A stretch of 40,884 nucleotides of DNA from a virus. A program made the position numbers and the translations under genes. This document shows, one piece after another, positions 1 to 40,884 of this stretch. The notes beneath the pieces were generated by a model. It was not told where the DNA came from. It ran no database searches and was given only the letters and a program-made list of their open reading frames with translations. Numbering within the stretch: the stretch's first letter is position 1; each line of letters starts with the position of its first letter. The stretch lies in IMG/VR virus record IMGVR_UViG_3300045988_051648, positions 1 to 40,884 of that record; one strand, written 5' to 3'.

Positions 1-23
1 GGGTTCGAGTCCCGCTGGAGGCA
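1..23 (+). tRNA. 3' end of the host target tRNA gene (T-loop, 3' T-stem, 3' acceptor strand, discriminator A); the gene body lies left of the window
   Basis: GGGTTCGAGTCCC T-arm consensus is followed by GC + TGGAGGC + A. No CCA is encoded. tRNA identity cannot be read from this fragment. Confidence 0.7.
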
Positions 24-41
24 CTTTTGGAAACCGCCAGA
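1..41. repeat. attL core (direct repeat copy 1)
   Basis: Identical to 40844-40884 at 41/41 positions. The repeat may extend beyond the right window edge. Confidence 0.9.
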
Positions 42-11430: not shown

Positions 11431-12369
11431 ATGGCTAGACGCGGCTACGTGCAGCTCGTGAACGAATTCTACGCTAACGAGAAGGTGCAGGAACTGGCCC
11501 GCAGCGGACGCATGGACGCTGTTGGAGTCTTCTGCATGGCTTTGACGTATTGCGGCGACCATCTCACGGACGGATTCGTGCCGCGCCGCGCCATGCTCTA
11601 TGTCATCGGCGCCACGGGCGAGCAGGTCAACGCACTGTGCGATGTCGGAATGCTCGAAGCGGTTGACGAAGGCTGGATAATCCACGACTACACCGCCCAC
11701 AATCGCACCAAAGAGCAGGTATTGCACGCCAGGAAGAAAAGCGCCGAGCGCGTGGCCAAGCATCGCAACGAATCGGATGTAACAGCGTTACATCGGAACT
11801 GTAACGCTGTTACATCGGGACAAACACCAGAACACCAGAACACCAGAACCCAAAAGAAAGATGAAGAAGAATATTCTTCTTCTTCATCCAAAGAAATCGG
11901 GCTGAACGGCTTCGAGCTGGTCAGGGAGAAAGCCCACGCCAATGCCGCCATAATCCGCGATTACCCGAATCTCGACCTGTCGGACGCATGGGCGGCATTC
12001 GCACAACACCATTCCGGCGAAACACGCTCCGTCAACGACTGGACACGACTATGGAAAGGCTGGTGCCAACGCAGAGCCAACATGAGCGGCATACCACCCT
12101 CGAAACGACACATACACACGTGGAAATGCCGCCACGTGCTCGAAGCGCTCGGACGCGACGAACCATCGGCGAGGCATTGCCATGGTGACGCTCGACCCGC
12201 CGCCAGACCTCGTGGAAATCGCCGACGCATTGGACATCATGGCCAAGCCCCACGTCGGCAGCGGTTGGGCGAACCTCAACTTCGACGGCCTTCCATGCGC
12301 CACGCCACGGCAGGAGGCCATCTGGATGGAATACAACGGAATCACAAGAGGAGATTAGGCGATGGCTAG
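11431..12369 (+). CDS. Replication-organiser-like protein, copy 1 with a junction-derived aberrant C-terminus
   Basis: The first 244 aa are identical to the 12362-13159 product. The last 68 aa are an Arg-rich out-of-frame read of the duplicated segment. Confidence 0.55.
   Translation: MARRGYVQLVNEFYANEKVQELARSGRMDAVGVFCMALTYCGDHLTDGFVPRRAMLYVIGATGEQVNALCDVGMLEAVDEGWIIHDYTAHNRTKEQVLHARKKSAERVAKHRNESDVTALHRNCNAVTSGQTPEHQNTRTQKKDEEEYSSSSSKEIGLNGFELVREKAHANAAIIRDYPNLDLSDAWAAFAQHHSGETRSVNDWTRLWKGWCQRRANMSGIPPSKRHIHTWKCRHVLEALGRDEPSARHCHGDARPAARPRGNRRRIGHHGQAPRRQRLGEPQLRRPSMRHATAGGHLDGIQRNHKRRLGDG
11776..11888. promoter_or_regulatory. ori-like repeat cluster inside the rep-like gene (copy 1)
   Basis: Two 19-bp iterons TGTAAC-NNN-GTTACATCGG start at 11778 and 11800, 22 bp apart. 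They are followed by 3 x AACACCAG (11823-11846) and the AT-centred palindrome GATGAAGAAGAATATTCTTCTTCTTCATC (11860-11888). Confidence 0.5.
12182..12358 (+). CDS. Hypothetical 58-aa protein (copy 2)
   Basis: Copy of 11251-11427 shifted by 931 bp. Confidence 0.4.
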   Translation: MVTLDPPPDLVEIADALDIMAKPHVGSGWANLNFDGLPCATPRQEAIWMEYNGITRGD

Positions 12370-13159
12370 ACGCGGCTACGTGCAGCTCGTGAACGAATTC
12401 TACGCTAACGAGAAGGTGCAGGAACTGGCCCGCAGCGGACGCATGGACGCTGTTGGAGTCTTCTGCATGGCTTTGACGTATTGCGGCGACCATCTCACGG
12501 ACGGATTCGTGCCGCGCCGCGCCATGCTCTATGTCATCGGCGCCACGGGCGAGCAGGTCAACGCACTGTGCGATGTCGGAATGCTCGAAGCGGTTGACGA
12601 AGGCTGGATAATCCACGACTACACCGCCCACAATCGCACCAAAGAGCAGGTATTGCACGCCAGGAAGAAAAGCGCCGAGCGCGTGGCCAAGCATCGCAAC
12701 GAATCGGATGTAACAGCGTTACATCGGAACTGTAACGCTGTTACATCGGGACAAACACCAGAACACCAGAACACCAGAACCCAAAAGAAAGATGAAGAAG
12801 AATATTCTTCTTCTTCATCCAAAGAAATCGGGCTGAACGGCTTCGAGCTGGTCAGGGAGAAAGCCCACGCCAATGCCGCCATAATCCGCGATTACCCGAA
12901 TCTCGACCTGTCGGACGCATGGGCGGCATTCGCACAACACCATTCCGGCGAAACACGCTCCGTCAACGACTGGACACGACTATGGAAAGGCTGGTGCCAA
13001 CGCAGAGCCAACATGAGCGGCATACCACCCTCGAAACGACACATACACACGTGGAAATGCCGCCACGTGCTCGAAGCGCTCGGACGCGACGAAGAAACCG
13101 CACAGGCAGACGAAAAGGCCTGCGAATTAGCCGACAAACTCAACAAGGAGAAATCATGA
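12362..13159 (+). CDS. Replication-organiser-like protein, intact copy (265 aa)
   Basis: N-terminal domain GYVQLVNEFYANEKV...GVFCMALTYCGDHLTDGFVP resembles phage replisome organiser/DnaD-like N-domains. An iteron cluster lies in its low-complexity linker, as lambda ori lies within gene O. Confidence 0.5.
   Translation: MARRGYVQLVNEFYANEKVQELARSGRMDAVGVFCMALTYCGDHLTDGFVPRRAMLYVIGATGEQVNALCDVGMLEAVDEGWIIHDYTAHNRTKEQVLHARKKSAERVAKHRNESDVTALHRNCNAVTSGQTPEHQNTRTQKKDEEEYSSSSSKEIGLNGFELVREKAHANAAIIRDYPNLDLSDAWAAFAQHHSGETRSVNDWTRLWKGWCQRRANMSGIPPSKRHIHTWKCRHVLEALGRDEETAQADEKACELADKLNKEKS
12707..12819. promoter_or_regulatory. ori-like repeat cluster (copy 2)
   Basis: Same elements as 11776-11888, shifted by 931 bp. 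Confidence 0.5.
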
Positions 13160-13791: not shown

Positions 13792-14012
13792 TGGACGGAT
13801 TGGACAAGGTTGAGAAAATTATGATTGGCGCACTGGTGGTATCCCTCGCCGCAACGCTCTTCCTGATGGGATTAAGCATCTACGCGTACTGGTATGTGGG
13901 CACGCATCACGATTACGGCATGACGACGGTCAAGACCGGCGACGTGACATGGGTCTGTCTGACCGATCATGGCAAGACCATCGGCTGCGACACTGTGGAG
14001 GAGTACAAGTGA
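13791..14012 (+). CDS. Small membrane protein
   Basis: TGATG overlap. Hydrophobic segment IGALVVSLAATLFLMGLSIYAYWYV. Confidence 0.55.
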   Translation: MDGLDKVEKIMIGALVVSLAATLFLMGLSIYAYWYVGTHHDYGMTTVKTGDVTWVCLTDHGKTIGCDTVEEYK

Positions 14013-14152
14013 AGAAAATACTCGAAGACATGATCATCAAATGGCATCAGGCCGGATACGCGCTCGACGAGATCGCGCCACTCGTGCCACAAGTGCCGAA
14101 AGCCGCAATCGCGGCCATCATCCACCAGTACGACAAGGAGACCAGACTTTGA
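14009..14152 (+). CDS. 47-aa HTH-like protein
   Basis: The GTG start overlaps the upstream TGA. Sequence IIKWHQAGYALDEIAPLV. Confidence 0.4.
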   Translation: MKKILEDMIIKWHQAGYALDEIAPLVPQVPKAAIAAIIHQYDKETRL

Positions 14153-14901
14153 CCGACTGCCAGCACTGCCGCAAGCCCATGAAACCGGCGGCGGACAATC
14201 TGCTCTGCCAAACCTGCCGTGAAACCTACTGGACCATGATTTACCAGCTCGGACACATCCAGCTCCCGACCCTGCGAAGCATCATGCTCCGTCAGGCGCA
14301 CATCGGCACCCCGGCACACACGCCAAACAAAGGCAACGCGCCACTCCCGATCGACACCCGCGCGCAAGACCTCATCAGCGAATCGGAAGCCTGGCTGGCC
14401 GAACAGGCAGGGAAAATCAGAGCGGCATACGCTGGATACGACTGGCGGAAAGCATGGTACGCCATCATCAGCAACCGGCACACCATCCTCAACATGAGCA
14501 CAGCAGCAGACGACTACGCCGCCCTGGAACACATCACCAGACGCAACGAACGAGCGTTGACCCCAGAAGAGGCAATGGTCATCATCGGCACATGCCCACA
14601 ATGCGGCCACCAAGCCACCAGCACGCCACAAGCCGAAACATGGACATGCCCAGACTGCAAATGGCAAGGCGGAGTCCAAGCCATCAAAGCCGAACGCGAC
14701 AACAAACTCTGGCAACTCGAATACACCGGAAAACCAGTCGAAGTCGCACGCTACCTCGCCAAAATGGACATCCACTGCACCAGCGACCAGATCCGCCAAT
14801 GGCTCACCAGAGGCAAACTGCACGCCACGCCGACAAAACACAAAGGAGAGTACGTGTTCAACCTCGGAGAAATAACCGCCATGCTTGACTGTCACAATTA
14901 A
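14149..14901 (+). CDS. Two-zinc-ribbon plus C-terminal HTH protein; candidate late-gene regulator
   Basis: TTG 14149 has AAGGAG 8 nt upstream. Zinc ribbons CQHC-x13-CQTC and CPQC-x14-CPDC. C-terminal segment VEVARYLAKMDIHCTSDQIRQWLTRGKL. Last gene before the late operon. Confidence 0.55.
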   Translation: MTDCQHCRKPMKPAADNLLCQTCRETYWTMIYQLGHIQLPTLRSIMLRQAHIGTPAHTPNKGNAPLPIDTRAQDLISESEAWLAEQAGKIRAAYAGYDWRKAWYAIISNRHTILNMSTAADDYAALEHITRRNERALTPEEAMVIIGTCPQCGHQATSTPQAETWTCPDCKWQGGVQAIKAERDNKLWQLEYTGKPVEVARYLAKMDIHCTSDQIRQWLTRGKLHATPTKHKGEYVFNLGEITAMLDCHN

Positions 14902-14912
14902 AATGCTATACT
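14885..14912 (+). promoter_or_regulatory. Near-consensus sigma70-type promoter (candidate late promoter)
   Basis: TTGACT(14885-14890), 16-nt spacer, then TGcTATACT (extended -10, hexamer 14907-14912). Confidence 0.55.
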
Positions 14913-14932
14913 GTCGTATGTTTGTAAAATGA

Positions 14933-14964
14933 AATGGTCCAGCCAGAAAATGGTTTGGACCATT
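14933..14964 (+). terminator. Leader hairpin (terminator-like) downstream of the late promoter
   Basis: AATGGTCCA-N14-TGGACCATT is a 9-bp stem, followed by ATTCGTAT. The U-tract is weak. Confidence 0.4.
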
Positions 14965-14975
14965 ATTCGTATCCA

Positions 14976-15135
14976 GCTTCGGTAGCTCAGTGGCAGAGCA
15001 CGAGGGATAGCACAGATACCTAGGACGGATGCCTTACCGGCCATGGTTTCCTACTTCTTTAAATCGAATGCCCGTGATGAGAAAAAGACAGTGCACCCCA
15101 CACAAGCGCTGGTTCGACTCCAGCCCGAAGCACCA
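14976..15135 (+). ncRNA. tRNA-like gene with intact acceptor, D and T arms and encoded CCA, but 107 nt in place of the anticodon arm
   Basis: GCTTCGG (14976-82) pairs 7/7 with CCGAAGC (15125-31), followed by ACCA. D-arm TAGCTCAGTGGCAGAGCA. T-arm GCTGG-TTCGACT-CCAGC (15108-24). No 5-7-5 anticodon hairpin exists in 15001-15107. Confidence 0.7.
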
Positions 15136-15150
15136 CAAGGCGGTGACCAC

Positions 15151-15459
15151 ATGCCAGGAAGAACGCGCAAGACAAGCCGCCAATTCGAAAAAGACAAGGC
15201 CACATTCTTCACACAATGCAAAGCACAGCATGCAGTCTGCTGGTTGTGTGGTATGCCAATCGACTACAACGCAGTCAAGAACACCACAGATGACAGCTTC
15301 AACCTCGATCACCTCTATCCCGTCTCGAAGCATCCCGAACTCCAATTCGACCCGGCAGGCTTCAAACCAAGCCACACCAGCTGCAACCGGCTGCGCGGAA
15401 ACCAAGACCCGCCAGCACCAATCGGCACACTAAGCAGACAATGGATAAAGACAGCATGA
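15151..15459 (+). CDS. HNH endonuclease (packaging-associated, HK97 gp74-like position)
   Basis: CWLCG...LDHLYPVSKHP...HTSCNRLRG. The start is taken at ATG 15151 so the gene does not overlap the tRNA-like element. Confidence 0.8.
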   Translation: MPGRTRKTSRQFEKDKATFFTQCKAQHAVCWLCGMPIDYNAVKNTTDDSFNLDHLYPVSKHPELQFDPAGFKPSHTSCNRLRGNQDPPAPIGTLSRQWIKTA

Positions 15460-15737: not shown

Positions 15738-15840
15738 AACCAACGCAAGAACGCAAGACGTCCCGCGTGGTTGGTCTCCCTCTCCCCGATGGCCGAAATT
15801 GACCGGGGTCGCGCGCGCGATTGCAGATTCGAGGTGAAGT

Positions 15841-40843: not shown

Positions 40844-40884
40844 GGGTTCGAGTCCCGCTGGAGGCACTTTTGGAAACCGCCAGA
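40844..40884. repeat. attR core (direct repeat copy 2; partial tRNA 3' end)
   Basis: Identical to 1-41. The upstream flank (GGTTTATGATTGT) is not tRNA-like, so the intact tRNA is at the left end. Confidence 0.9.

What the first reader, a model, noticed from the sequence alone, without database searches (positions are those of the whole stretch)
14976..15135. tRNA-like gene lacking an anticodon arm: perfect acceptor, D and T arms plus encoded CCA around a 107-nt insert
Four canonical tRNA parts are present:
- GCTTCGG (14976-14982) pairs 7/7 with CCGAAGC (15125-15131), followed by discriminator A and CCA.
- 14983-15000 is a textbook D-arm (TA GCTC AGTGGCA GAGC A).
- 15108-15124 is a textbook T-arm (GCTGG TTCGACT CCAGC).
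- The 107 nt between the D-arm and T-arm (15001-15107) contain no anticodon arm.

I checked every 5-7-5 register in the insert, and every prefix/suffix splice that could rebuild a 17-nt anticodon arm plus a 4-5 nt variable loop. None pairs. The best long-range helix is GGG-ATA-GCAC (15004-15013) with GTGC-A-CCC (15091-15098). That would extend exactly where the anticodon stem belongs.

The insert is far shorter than the group I introns known in bacterial tRNA genes. It shows no strong internal fold.

Three options remain:
- A recently disrupted phage tRNA pseudogene.
- An unrecognised kind of short intervening sequence.
- A deliberate tRNA mimic. tmRNA tRNA-like domains and YrlA Y-RNA modules likewise replace the anticodon arm by a helix. 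Such a mimic might act on RNase P, the CCA-adding enzyme, synthetases, or tRNA-targeting defence nucleases.

The element sits in the leader of the late operon behind a near-consensus promoter, so it should be abundantly transcribed on induction.
Basis: seen in the sequence. Interest (0 to 1): 0.7.

Follow-up and report, generated by a model that had tools for sequence, protein, structure and literature searches.

The report
Conserved tRNA-shaped phage RNA, no anticodon
A Bifidobacterium prophage carries, at the head of its late genes, a conserved tRNA-shaped RNA whose anticodon loop is replaced by a roughly 90-base folded domain; it cannot decode, is under selection, and matches no described RNA family.

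Summary
Window 14976-15135 has a 7/7 acceptor stem, a canonical D arm, a canonical T arm and an encoded ACCA. Rfam tRNA scores 40.9 bits (cut-off 29) with about 103 nt where the anticodon arm belongs.

It is neither a recent pseudogene nor an intron-bearing tRNA:
- I found 130 copies (74 distinct) in gut viral contigs and Bifidobacterium-type prophages.
- Stems are nearly invariant (diversity 0.006-0.03). Loops vary as fast as third codon positions (0.26-0.36 against 0.24).
- The T stem and the long helix that replaces the anticodon stem show compensatory changes.
- Intron-mode ARAGORN gives inconsistent anticodons, and none at all in one subfamily.

The insert is a three-way junction: a long helix plus two conserved hairpins.

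The element exists as two discrete types, A and B. They differ by 30%, while their flanks are no more different between types than within.

It always lies between a strong promoter with a terminator-like hairpin and an HNH-terminase late operon. Related phages carry a real tRNA-Trp, an atypical tRNA-like gene, or nothing in that slot.

Best reading: a non-decoding tRNA mimic, probably matured by tRNA-processing enzymes, with the insert as the working part. Its function is untested.

The parts
14149..14901 (+). Upstream gene (about 250 aa; the longer ORF starts at 13969). It has two CxxC..CxxC zinc ribbons and a C-terminal helix-turn-helix. Candidate late-gene regulator. This is context, not part of the RNA.
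   Evidence: It is 90% identical over 250 aa to P0108. It matches phrog_908, of unknown function. Cysteines are conserved, and 20-27% identical homologues sit at the same place in L217, L218, L220, L221 and L225. The AlphaFold2 model has low confidence.
14885..14912 (+). Sigma-70-type promoter: TTGACT, 16-nt spacer, TATACT, with a TG extended -10.
   Evidence: It matches 10 of 12 consensus positions, with TG before the -10. It is conserved in related loci.
14934..14963 (+). Strong hairpin (AUGGUCCA...UGGACCAU) followed by a U-rich tail and a conserved TCATATCC. It is terminator- or attenuator-like and lies between the promoter and the tRNA-like RNA.
   Evidence: MFE -19.5 kcal/mol, z = -4.64, 0 of 200 shuffles as stable. 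The stem covaries (GGTCCA/TGGACC to GGCCCG/CGGGCC). The tail is UUUUU in subfamily B loci. Unrelated hairpin sequences sit at the same place in L217 and L220.
14976..15135 (+). The whole tRNA-like RNA gene, 160 nt.
   Evidence: Rfam tRNA 40.9 bits. The family covariance model R1 scores 159 bits, and this is the only full copy in the window.
14976..14982 (+). Acceptor stem, 5' strand (GCUUCGG).
   Evidence: It pairs 7/7 with 15125-15131. Pairs 1-6 are intact in nearly all of 74 variants; pair 7 is A.A or A.G in subfamily B.
14985..14999 (+). D arm (GCUC AGUGGCA GAGC), with G18 G19.
   Evidence: Aligned to the Rfam tRNA D arm. The stem is paired in 73-74 of 74 variants. The D loop varies (AGUGGCA, AGCGGCA, AGCGGUUA, AACGGCA) but nearly always keeps GG; L265 and L197 are exceptions.
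15001..15013 (+). 5' strand of the long helix that replaces the anticodon stem (vestigial stem 27-31, then GAU, bulged A, GCAC).
   Evidence: It pairs with 15091-15102. Double-sided changes: el31-122 is G-C in type A and A-U in type B; el37-117 is A-U in A and G-C in 7 B variants. The helix is rebuilt with changes on both strands in L290.
15014..15022 (+). Junction strand J1 (AGAUACCUA). The AUACC core is shared by most variants of both types.
   Evidence: Alignments. Diversity 0.077.
15023..15042 (+). Hairpin A: GGACGG, 8-nt loop, CCGGCC.
   Evidence: Stem diversity 0.006 against loop diversity 0.26. Loop length and sequence vary. Type B has GGUCGG/CCAACC at the same place.
15043..15076 (+). 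Hairpin B: (C)AUGGUUUC, variable loop, GAAUGCCCGUG.
   Evidence: Stem diversity 0.020 against loop diversity 0.36. The loop is cleanly deleted in L145 with the stem kept. CAUGG/CCGUG in A corresponds to CAUGG/CCAUG in B.
15077..15090 (+). Junction strand J3 (AUGAGAAAAAGACA). AUGA is shared by most variants of both types; the A-run varies in length.
   Evidence: Diversity 0.25.
15091..15102 (+). 3' strand of the long helix (GUGC ACC CCACA).
   Evidence: Partner of 15001-15013.
15103..15107 (+). Variable-loop equivalent (CAAGC).
   Evidence: It sits in the register of tRNA positions 44-48 in the Rfam alignment. Diversity 0.34.
15108..15124 (+). T arm (GCUGG UUCGACU CCAGC).
   Evidence: The stem is paired in 73-74 of 74 variants. 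Pair el135-147 has three Watson-Crick types and pair el134-148 has two. The T loop is UCCGACU in type B.
15125..15135 (+). Acceptor 3' strand (CCGAAGC), discriminator A, and encoded CCA.
   Evidence: ACCA is present in most copies. It is replaced by GCUA or ACUU in some mosaics.
15137..15459 (+). Ribosome-binding site (AAGGCGGUGA, 15137-15146) and HNH endonuclease gene (ATG at 15151, 102 aa). This is the first gene of the packaging/late operon.
   Evidence: phrog_338 HNH endonuclease, E = 7e-27. Terminase small subunit, large subunit and portal follow.

Best explanation
This is the gene for a non-decoding, tRNA-shaped non-coding RNA of temperate Bifidobacterium phages.

What the sequence shows:
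- A complete tRNA body is kept: acceptor stem with ACCA, D arm with G18 G19, and T arm with a T-loop.
- The anticodon loop is replaced. The anticodon stem continues as a long imperfect helix that opens into a three-way junction with two sequence-conserved hairpins.
- The gene is the first thing transcribed after a strong promoter and a terminator-like hairpin. It lies immediately 5' of the HNH-terminase late operon.

What I infer (not shown):
- The RNA is made when late transcription reads through the hairpin.
- It is cut out of the leader by RNase P at 14975/14976 and by tRNA 3'-end processing at the CCA.
- It folds into an L-shape that gives it tRNA-like stability.
- It cannot read a codon. 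The tRNA body therefore serves as a built-in processing and stability scaffold, and possibly as bait for tRNA-binding proteins.
- The inserted junction domain is the specific working part, most likely a protein-binding module.
- The two discrete types (A and B) in an otherwise freely recombining background suggest two specificities, as expected for an RNA engaged with a variable host or phage partner.
For: tRNA body:
- Rfam tRNA 40.9 bits, above the cut-off of 29, with 103 nt in place of the anticodon arm.

Family:
- 130 loci and 74 distinct sequences in IMG/VR, one GenBank faecal phage, and Bifidobacterium-type prophages.

Selection on structure:
- Diversity in the hairpin A stem is 0.006, in the hairpin B stem 0.020, and in the acceptor/D region 0.03.
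- Diversity in loops and the variable region is 0.26-0.36.
- Third codon positions of the adjacent HNH gene are at 0.24.
- The hairpin B loop is deleted in L145 with the stem kept.

Pairing and covariation:
- 86.2% of cells are paired, against 25-38% when partners are slid.
- 7 pairs have changes on both sides.
- The covariation score is 0.104 against 0.065 in shuffles (0 of 500 reach it).
- The T stem has three Watson-Crick variants. The long helix shows G-C to A-U and A-U to G-C exchanges. It is rebuilt in L290.

No decoding:
- There is no anticodon hairpin.
- Intron-mode calls are inconsistent.

Dimorphism:
- The element differs by 0.297 between types, against 0.097 and 0.056 within types.
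- The flanks differ as much within types as between them.
- The Fst-like value is 0.69 at the element and at most 0.40 elsewhere across about 9-20 kb.

Context:
- Promoter, hairpin, and an HNH gene always downstream, although of three different HNH types.
- The same slot holds a genuine tRNA-Trp in L220 and an atypical tRNA-like gene in L221-L224.
Against: - There is no expression, processing or binding data. RNase P cleavage, CCA status and stability are inferred from the shape alone.
- Single-sequence folding is not better than shuffles.
- Covariation rests mainly on two or three lineages, so statistical power is limited.
- Type B relaxes canonical tRNA features: U55 becomes C, pair 7-66 is mismatched, and some copies lack an encoded CCA.
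- The element is dispensable in some phages. There are deletion derivatives (L198, L202, L213), remnants (L308, L329), and relatives with an empty slot (L217, L218, L225).
- No partner gene co-varies with type A or B within the flanks available.
- No antisense target exists in the prophage.
Confidence: 0.55

Rival explanations
1. A purely cis-acting processing signal ('tRNA punctuation'). Any tRNA-shaped structure here recruits RNase P and 3'-end enzymes. These detach the promoter-proximal hairpin leader and create a defined 5' end, with the ribosome-binding site close to it, for the HNH-terminase mRNA. The excised RNA itself has no function.
For: - The slot between the hairpin and the HNH gene holds different tRNA-shaped occupants in related phages: tRNA-Trp plus a cloverleaf-like RNA in L220, an atypical tRNA-Leu-like gene in L221-L224, and types A and B here.
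- The ribosome-binding site starts 2 nt after the CCA.
- The acceptor and T arms are the best-kept tRNA parts.
Against: - It does not explain why the insert's two hairpin stems are the most conserved part of the element (0.006-0.02).
- It does not explain why two discrete insert types persist.
- Related phages with the same operon layout manage with no tRNA-like structure (L217, L218, L225).
Confidence: 0.2
2. A decaying tRNA pseudogene: a phage tRNA gene (perhaps of tRNA-Phe type) that suffered an insertion and is drifting.
For: - Normal tRNAs with the same acceptor stem exist in unrelated phages. The closest are tRNA-Phe(GAA) genes that share GCTTCGGTAGCTCAG..GAGCACGAG and CCGAAGCACCA.
- Deletion derivatives and remnants exist.
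- The anticodon stem is degenerate.
Against: - Within-type diversity (0.056-0.097) is far below third-codon diversity next door (0.23-0.24).
- Stems are nearly invariant while loops are free to vary.
- Compensatory changes occur in three helices.
- 130 copies keep the full architecture.
Confidence: 0.05
3. A tRNA gene with a new kind of short intron, about 75-100 nt, in the anticodon loop. The intron is spliced out to give a working tRNA.
For: - ARAGORN in intron mode finds tRNA-Ala(TGC) with an 83-nt intron. The last exon base is U and the last intron base is G, as at group I splice sites.
- The insertion lies where bacterial tRNA introns lie (bioRxiv 10.1101/2020.01.27.920355).
Against: - The predicted isotype and anticodon change among near-identical relatives (Ala tgc/agc/ggc, Thr agt, Phe gaa). 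Nothing is found in type B.
- The Ala call lacks G3:U70; the pair here is U3-A70.
- The model needs 2 nt at position 26 and a 4/5 stem.
- The helix continues straight through the supposed splice sites, with covariation.
- No group I intron or ribozyme model matches at E <= 10.
- The insert is far smaller than known group I cores.
Confidence: 0.04
4. A DNA-level site, such as cos or a terminase-binding site, an operator, or a recombination site. It would merely overlap a tRNA remnant. The palindromes GCCATGGC and GTGCAC would be protein-binding sites.
For: - The insert contains conserved palindromes: CCATGG in both types, ATGGCGCCAT in B.
- Mosaic junctions fall exactly at the 3' end of the element.
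Against: - Helices keep pairing through changes on both strands, and loops are free. This is the pattern of a folded single strand, not of a sequence-specific duplex site.
- Full tRNA tertiary-contact residues are kept.
- By analogy with HK97-type HNH packaging systems (my own knowledge, not tested here), cos is expected between the HNH and small-terminase genes. A separate conserved non-coding gap exists there (15738-15840).
Confidence: 0.05
5. A member or miniature of a known tRNA-mimic family: a tmRNA (tRNA-like domain plus tag) or a YrlA-type Y RNA bound by Ro/Rsr.
For: Like tmRNA and YrlA, it keeps acceptor, T and D-loop elements and replaces the anticodon arm by a long helix (structure).
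Against: - ARAGORN in tmRNA mode finds nothing, even at a relaxed threshold.
- Neither the Rfam tmRNA model nor YrlA (RF02553) matches the window region at E <= 10.
- Pair 3-70 is U-A, not the G.U needed for alanylation.
- There is no conserved reading frame or stop codon; the only TAA lies in the variable, deletable loop of hairpin B.
- YrlA has the permuted topology: free ends in the Ro-binding helix and a closed acceptor.
Confidence: 0.03

Closest known systems
Bona fide phage tRNA genes placed in the late-operon leader. Here: tRNA-Trp(CCA) in related locus L220. From my own knowledge: the tRNA genes downstream of the late promoter in Stx phage 933W.
   Same: - Same genomic slot: after the promoter and hairpin, before the HNH-terminase genes.
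- Same acceptor, D and T architecture, with the CCA encoded in most copies.
- Presumably the same processing enzymes.
   Different: - It has no anticodon hairpin and so no decoding function.
- It carries a conserved junction domain of about 90 nt instead.
- It exists as two discrete types.
tmRNA tRNA-like domain
   Same: The acceptor and T arm are kept, and the anticodon stem is replaced by a long helix leading to further structure.
   Different: - It has a full D stem.
- Pair 3-70 is U-A instead of G.U.
- It has no tag reading frame and no pseudoknot series, and it is only 160 nt.
- tmRNA detectors find nothing.
YrlA / bacterial Y RNA tRNA-like module (Chen et al. 2014, PMC4201824; Rfam RF02553)
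   Same: It is a tRNA mimic with T arm, D arm and acceptor-like stem, in which the anticodon stem is replaced by a long helix. Some examples are phage-encoded.
   Different: - The topology is the reverse: here the free ends are in the acceptor stem with CCA, and the far end is closed.
- There is no Ro-binding helix motif.
- RF02553 does not match.
RNase P-processed phage regulatory RNAs with tRNA-like ends, such as the P1/P7 C4 RNA and the phage T4 stable RNAs C and D in the tRNA cluster (my own knowledge)
   Same: These are small phage RNAs released from longer transcripts through tRNA-like termini.
   Different: - Those RNAs have only an acceptor-like stem, not a complete tRNA body.
- C4 acts by antisense pairing, and no target complementarity is found here.
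Bacterial tRNA genes interrupted by group I introns in the anticodon loop (bioRxiv 10.1101/2020.01.27.920355)
   Same: The extra sequence sits where the anticodon loop should be.
   Different: - The insert is about 100 nt with no group I core (no Rfam match).
- The exons do not rebuild an anticodon arm.
Engineered 'tRNA scaffold' RNAs, in which a recombinant RNA is inserted in place of the anticodon loop so that it is processed and stabilised in bacteria (Ponchon and Dardel; my own knowledge)
   Same: The architecture is identical in principle: an intact tRNA body, an extended anticodon stem, and a foreign structured module at its tip.
   Different: That is a laboratory design. This would be a natural counterpart, and its payload is unknown.

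Membership tests
Canonical tRNA (Rfam RF00005) | 7-bp acceptor stem, discriminator base and 3' CCA | tested here: met
   7/7 pairs, A73 and CCA. Pairs 1-6 are kept in nearly all of 74 variants.
Canonical tRNA (Rfam RF00005) | D arm with G18 G19, and T arm with a T54-psi55-C56..A58 loop | tested here: met
   Aligned with high posterior probability to the model. The T stem covaries. Type B has C at position 55.
Canonical tRNA (Rfam RF00005) | Anticodon arm: 5-bp stem and 7-nt loop with U33 and an anticodon | tested here: not met
   103 nt replace the 17 model positions. Default ARAGORN finds no gene. Only a partial stem remains: el28-125 is paired in only 1 of 74 variants.
tRNA gene with group I intron | Group I catalytic core (P3-P9) inside the insert | tested here: not met
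   No Intron_gpI match at E <= 10 in 14850-15250. The insert is only about 100 nt.
tRNA gene with group I intron | Exons that join to give a canonical anticodon arm with one consistent anticodon across relatives | tested here: not met
   ARAGORN -i gives Ala(tgc/agc/ggc), Thr(agt) and Phe(gaa) among relatives, and nothing in type B.
tmRNA | Detected by tmRNA models; G3:U70; tag reading frame with a resume codon and a stop | tested here: not met
   ARAGORN tmRNA mode finds none. There is no Rfam tmRNA match. Pair 3-70 is U-A. There is no conserved reading frame.
YrlA / Y RNA | Match to RF02553; ends paired in a Ro-binding helix with a closed acceptor-like stem | tested here: not met
   No YrlA match in the window region at E <= 10. 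The topology is the opposite (structure).
YrlA / Y RNA | Linked rsr (Ro60) gene or Ro binding | not tested
   Only part of the window was annotated, and none of the genes around the element that I annotated is Ro-like. Binding cannot be tested with these tools.
tRNA pseudogene | Neutral decay: no excess conservation and no maintenance of pairing | tested here: not met
   Stems 0.006-0.03 against loops 0.26-0.36 and third codon positions 0.24. Compensatory changes are present.
RNase P substrate / tRNA-like processing element | Coaxial acceptor plus T stem of 12 bp, T-loop/D-loop elbow, and 3' RCCA | tested here: met
   All are present in the sequence.
RNase P substrate / tRNA-like processing element | Actual cleavage at the 5' end of the acceptor stem | not testable with these tools
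   This needs an in vitro RNase P assay or 5'-end mapping.

The most novel reading that the evidence does not exclude
This is a natural 'tRNA-scaffolded' effector RNA. The phage uses a complete tRNA body so that host RNase P, 3'-end trimming and the tRNA fold mature and stabilise the RNA. In place of the anticodon loop it displays a three-way-junction module. That module binds and neutralises a host factor, for example a tRNA-directed defence nuclease or a toxin acting on the acceptor end, or else a translation or packaging protein. The two discrete types, A and B, would be alternative specificities kept by selection in an arms race.
Probability: 0.2. Interest if true: 0.85.

Novelty: new variant of a known kind. 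Interest (0 to 1): 0.62.

Why it matters
- tRNA mimics are few and each has been informative: tmRNA, Y RNA modules, viral tRNA-like structures. This would add a widespread family from phages of a major human gut commensal.
- Its design has otherwise been known only from engineering: a full tRNA body carrying a foreign structured module.
- It is abundant in gut viromes and dimorphic. It sits at the switch point of late gene expression, so it may report on a phage-host interaction in Bifidobacterium, such as tRNA-directed defence, RNA processing or late-gene control. Almost no phage molecular biology is known for this host.
- There is a practical side. Gene callers currently translate straight through the element and deposit spurious 129-176-aa 'proteins'. 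tRNA finders miss it.

Tried and rejected
- Default ARAGORN and the Rfam gathering-mode scan of the window gave no call. The element only appears in a sensitive local search.
- ARAGORN in intron mode gave an apparently neat tRNA-Ala(TGC) with an 83-nt intron. I rejected it after running all 74 variants.
- Hammerhead, K-turn/C-D box and bulge-helix-bulge readings of the GUGAUGA and GCAC/GUGC motifs were considered by eye. I dropped them: junction lengths and conserved positions do not fit, and Rfam has no match.
- The scan for the insert core ACCGGCCATGGYTTCC returned mostly chance hits in integrase genes (TGHGFR motif). The insert was not found outside this tRNA-like frame.
- My first HNH query was in the wrong frame. 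It nevertheless led to subfamily B, through spurious ORF calls that read across the element.
- The genome-collection scan gave one hit, labelled an uncultured Collinsella MAG. Protein names point to Bifidobacterium instead.
- The second cloverleaf-like RNA in L220 looked related by shared words (alignment z about 4). The family model does not support it (11 bits, E = 0.65).
- A search for antisense targets in the prophage found nothing above chance.
- A search for a partner locus linked to type A or B found none within the available flanks.
- The AlphaFold2 model of the upstream protein was too poor to use for fold search (pLDDT 66).
- Literature searches found no description of this RNA.
Full report
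**Observation**

- GCTTCGG (14976-14982) pairs 7/7 with CCGAAGC (15125-15131), followed by A and CCA.
- 14983-15000 is a textbook U8-A9 plus D arm.
- 15108-15124 is a textbook T arm.

The Rfam tRNA model aligns from its first to its last position at 40.9 bits (gathering score 29; E = 2e-07 for the 401 nt searched). It places 103 nt where its 17-nt anticodon arm should be. Default ARAGORN and the gathering-mode Rfam scan of the whole window report nothing. This explains why the element would go unannotated.

Folding the single sequence gives the cloverleaf frame, but the energy is not better than shuffles (z = -1.0 for the element, -0.5 for the insert).

**Whose genome**

- The window is a prophage of about 40.9 kb. 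It is bounded by an identical 41-bp direct repeat (1-41 and 40844-40884) that looks like the 3' end of a tRNA or tmRNA-type gene.
- The large terminase is 51% identical to those of Propionibacterium phages and 37-41% identical to Microbacterium and Arthrobacter phages.
- Homologues of the HNH and upstream proteins are named from Bifidobacterium breve, B. pseudocatenulatum, B. catenulatum and B. adolescentis.
- Size and G+C (58.6%) resemble the tmRNA-integrated bifidoprophages Bb447phi1 and Bb1192phi1 of Mavrich et al. 2018 (PMC6109161). That paper does not mention this RNA.

**Context**

The gene order is as follows:
- A 250-aa protein with two zinc ribbons and a helix-turn-helix (14149-14901).
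- A promoter, TTGACT-16-TGcTATACT (14885-14912).
- A strong hairpin (14934-14963, z = -4.6) with a U-rich tail.
- The element (14976-15135).
- A ribosome-binding site two bases after the CCA.
- The HNH endonuclease gene (ATG at 15151), a 98-aa ORF, the small terminase, the large terminase and the portal.

The hairpin covaries among relatives and is followed by UUUUU in many of them. This reads as a promoter-terminator switch at the head of the late operon.

**A family, not a one-off**

Pattern scans of IMG/VR, one GenBank faecal phage, and contigs reached through neighbouring proteins gave 130 loci with 74 distinct versions.

They fall into two types.
- Type A (the window) has 56 distinct sequences.
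- Type B has 18 distinct sequences. Its T arm is GCCGG UCCGACU CCGGC, its D loop is AACGGCA, and pair 7-66 is mismatched.

The inserts of the two types are only about 70% alike. They share the motifs AUAGCRC-A.AUACC, CCAUGG, YGAUGA-A-rich and GCAUYCC, in the same order.

**Structure**

In what follows, 'el' means position within the element; the window coordinate is 14975 + el.

On a 30-sequence alignment of both types, the structure I propose has 86.2% of cells paired. That falls to 25-38% when the 3' partners are slid by 1-3 columns. Seven pairs change on both sides. The covariation score is 0.104 against 0.065 in column shuffles, and none of 500 shuffles reaches it.

Specific findings (unless stated):
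- T stem. Pair el135-147 is U-A, G-C or C-G. Pair el134-148 is C-G or U-A.
- Anticodon-stem position. The stem survives only in part: el29-124 and el30-123 are paired, and el28-125 is paired in only 1 of 74 variants. It continues as a long helix.
- Long helix. Pair el31-122 is G-C in A and A-U in B. Pair el37-117 is A-U in A and G-C in seven B variants. In L290 the helix is rebuilt with changes on both strands.
- Inside the helix lies a three-way junction with two hairpins:
  - Hairpin A is GGACGG-loop-CCGGCC.
  - Hairpin B is (C)AUGGCUUC-loop-GAAUGCC-CGUG.
- Their loops vary in length and sequence. The hairpin B loop is cleanly deleted in L145.

**Selection**

| Region (type A unless noted) | Pairwise diversity |
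|---|---|
| Hairpin A stem | 0.006 |
| Hairpin B stem | 0.020 |
| Acceptor and D arm | 0.03 |
| Loops, variable region and J3 | 0.25-0.36 |
| Whole element, type A | 0.099 |
| Whole element, type B | 0.054 |
| HNH third codon positions | 0.24 |
| HNH first and second codon positions | 0.087 |

This is the signature of a folded RNA under purifying selection. It disposes of 'recent pseudogene'.

**Not an intron**

ARAGORN in intron mode calls tRNA-Ala(TGC) with an 83-nt intron for the window. This call does not stand up.
- It needs two bases at position 26 and a 4/5 stem.
- It lacks G3:U70.
- Across the 74 variants the same program calls Ala(tgc), Ala(agc), Ala(ggc), Thr(agt) or Phe(gaa), and nothing at all for type B.
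- The helix runs straight through the supposed splice sites.
- No group I intron, ribozyme, tmRNA or YrlA model matches the region at E <= 10.

**Two discrete types in a recombining background**

| Region | Within A | Within B | Between A and B |
|---|---|---|---|
| Upstream gene | 0.210 | 0.202 | 0.218 |
| Leader | 0.134 | 0.088 | 0.144 |
| HNH gene | 0.122 | 0.128 | 0.177 |
| Element | 0.097 | 0.056 | 0.297 |

The flanks differ about as much within a type as between types. The element does not.

An Fst-like scan gives 0.69 at 15001-15200 and no more than 0.40 anywhere else between 9 and 20 kb. So the element behaves as a dimorphic cassette. No linked partner locus shows up in the available flanks.

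Mosaic junctions fall exactly at the 3' end of the element. The gene that follows is always an HNH endonuclease, but of three different kinds.

**The slot in relatives**

More distant phages with the same layout (homologous zinc-ribbon gene, promoter, hairpin, HNH, terminase) carry different things in this position:
- L220 has a genuine tRNA-Trp(CCA) (Rfam 60.7 bits), followed by a 107-nt cloverleaf-like RNA.
- L221-L224 have an atypical 'tRNA-Leu(CAG)' with a very long anticodon arm. ARAGORN finds it, but Rfam does not in the multi-locus search at E <= 0.5.
- L217, L218 and L225 have nothing.

The element is also lost in some lineages:
- L198, L202 and L213 have a 74-nt deletion derivative that is not a tRNA.
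- L308 and L329 keep only ...CCCGAAGCACCA next to a different upstream module.

So the position is a tRNA 'cargo' slot, and the element is not essential to every phage of the group.

Normal tRNAs with the same acceptor stem occur in unrelated phages. The closest are tRNA-Phe(GAA) genes, which hints at ancestry but proves nothing. In the viral collection I found no uninterrupted version at this site.

**How it most likely works**

Shown:
- It has a tRNA body without an anticodon loop.
- It carries a conserved junction domain.
- It is under purifying selection and is dimorphic.
- It sits first in the late transcription unit.

Inferred:
- Read-through of the hairpin transcribes it together with the late genes.
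- RNase P and the 3'-end machinery release it, since every known determinant is present: a 12-bp acceptor/T coaxial stack, the elbow, and RCCA.
- The tRNA fold makes it stable.
- Because it cannot decode, the body acts as scaffold and perhaps as bait, and the junction domain provides the specific activity, probably protein binding.

The dimorphism fits an interaction with a variable partner. tRNA-directed defence systems are an obvious candidate class; for example, P2 OLD cuts off anticodon arms (PMC12445682). Nothing here tests that idea.

A purely cis role, as a processing signal for the late mRNA, is the main rival. It is compatible with part of the evidence, but it does not explain the conservation of the insert.

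**Comparison and novelty**

The element works like a tRNA mimic, but it fails the defining features of a decoding tRNA, an intron-bearing tRNA, tmRNA and YrlA (see the membership table). The nearest analogy in design is the laboratory 'tRNA scaffold'.

I found no description of this RNA in Rfam 15 or in the literature searched. I therefore rate it a new variant of a known kind: tRNA-like non-coding RNAs of phages.

**Verdict**

The element is a conserved functional RNA family. Its function is unknown and all mechanistic steps are inferred. Interest is moderately high.

Noticed in passing
window 1-41 and 40844-40884: An identical 41-bp direct repeat (GGGTTCGAGTCCCGCTGGAGGCACTTTTGGAAACCGCCAGA) lies at both ends of the window. 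It looks like the T-loop and acceptor 3' end of a tRNA or tmRNA-type gene plus the start of its terminator. These are probably the attL/attR cores of the prophage. It differs from the tmRNA att core published for Bb447phi1 and Bb1192phi1.
   Followed up: partly
window 14885-14975: The late promoter is followed by -10-like hexamers in the early transcribed region (TATGTT, TAAAAT), a covarying hairpin with a U-rich tail, and a conserved TCATATCC. The layout recalls a lambda PR'-tR' type antitermination switch. L217 and L220 have the same layout with unrelated hairpin sequences.
   Followed up: partly
window 14149-14901 (ORF from 13969): This is a conserved 250-aa protein with two CxxC..CxxC zinc ribbons and a C-terminal helix-turn-helix. 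It always sits just upstream of the late promoter, also in distant relatives (20-27% identity). Some genomes annotate it as 'PhnA protein', which looks like a misnomer. It is a candidate late-gene regulator. The structure model was of low confidence.
   Followed up: partly
window 15029-15459 and public protein sets (P0001-P0011, P0012-P0068): Gene callers translate through the tRNA-like element. They give HNH proteins with false N-terminal extensions (129-176 aa instead of 102). They also give an out-of-frame 160-aa 'protein' that contains the D arm and T arm as peptide.
   Followed up: yes
L220 2283-2358 and 2360-2466: A related phage has a genuine tRNA-Trp(CCA) in the same slot. It is followed at once by a 107-nt RNA that folds as a cloverleaf with an extra long arm and a 5-nt 'anticodon' loop, and has no CCA. 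It shares words with the window's insert (AGAGGAC, ACCGGCCAU, GUGAU, AAAACAGAC), but the family model does not support homology.
   Followed up: partly
L221-L224, about 2396-2480: An 84-nt gene directly upstream of the HNH gene is called tRNA-Leu(CAG) by ARAGORN but was not reported by Rfam in the multi-locus search at E <= 0.5. It can be drawn with a 13-bp anticodon arm and a weak D arm. Its 3' end resembles the att repeat of the window.
   Followed up: no
L198, L202, L213 (type B loci): These are 74-nt deletion derivatives. They arose between the imperfect direct repeats ACGGTCGGACCCC (insert) and CCGGTCCGACTCC (T arm). Part of the type B insert therefore resembles its own T arm.
   Followed up: partly
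window 11431-12369 and 12362-13159: Two adjacent ORFs both match the same N-terminal region of phage replication-initiation protein families (phrog_2447, phrog_3926). This looks like a tandem duplication.
   Followed up: no
window 15738-15840: A non-coding gap of about 100 nt lies between the 98-aa ORF after the HNH gene and the small terminase gene. A similar gap is present in L184 and L220. It is a likely place for the cos site.
   Followed up: no
L102 (GTDB contig CALBBA010000007.1): The only representative-genome hit to the element is labelled an uncultured Collinsella MAG, whereas protein homologues point to Bifidobacterium. The cause could be mis-binning of a prophage contig or a wider host range.
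   Followed up: no
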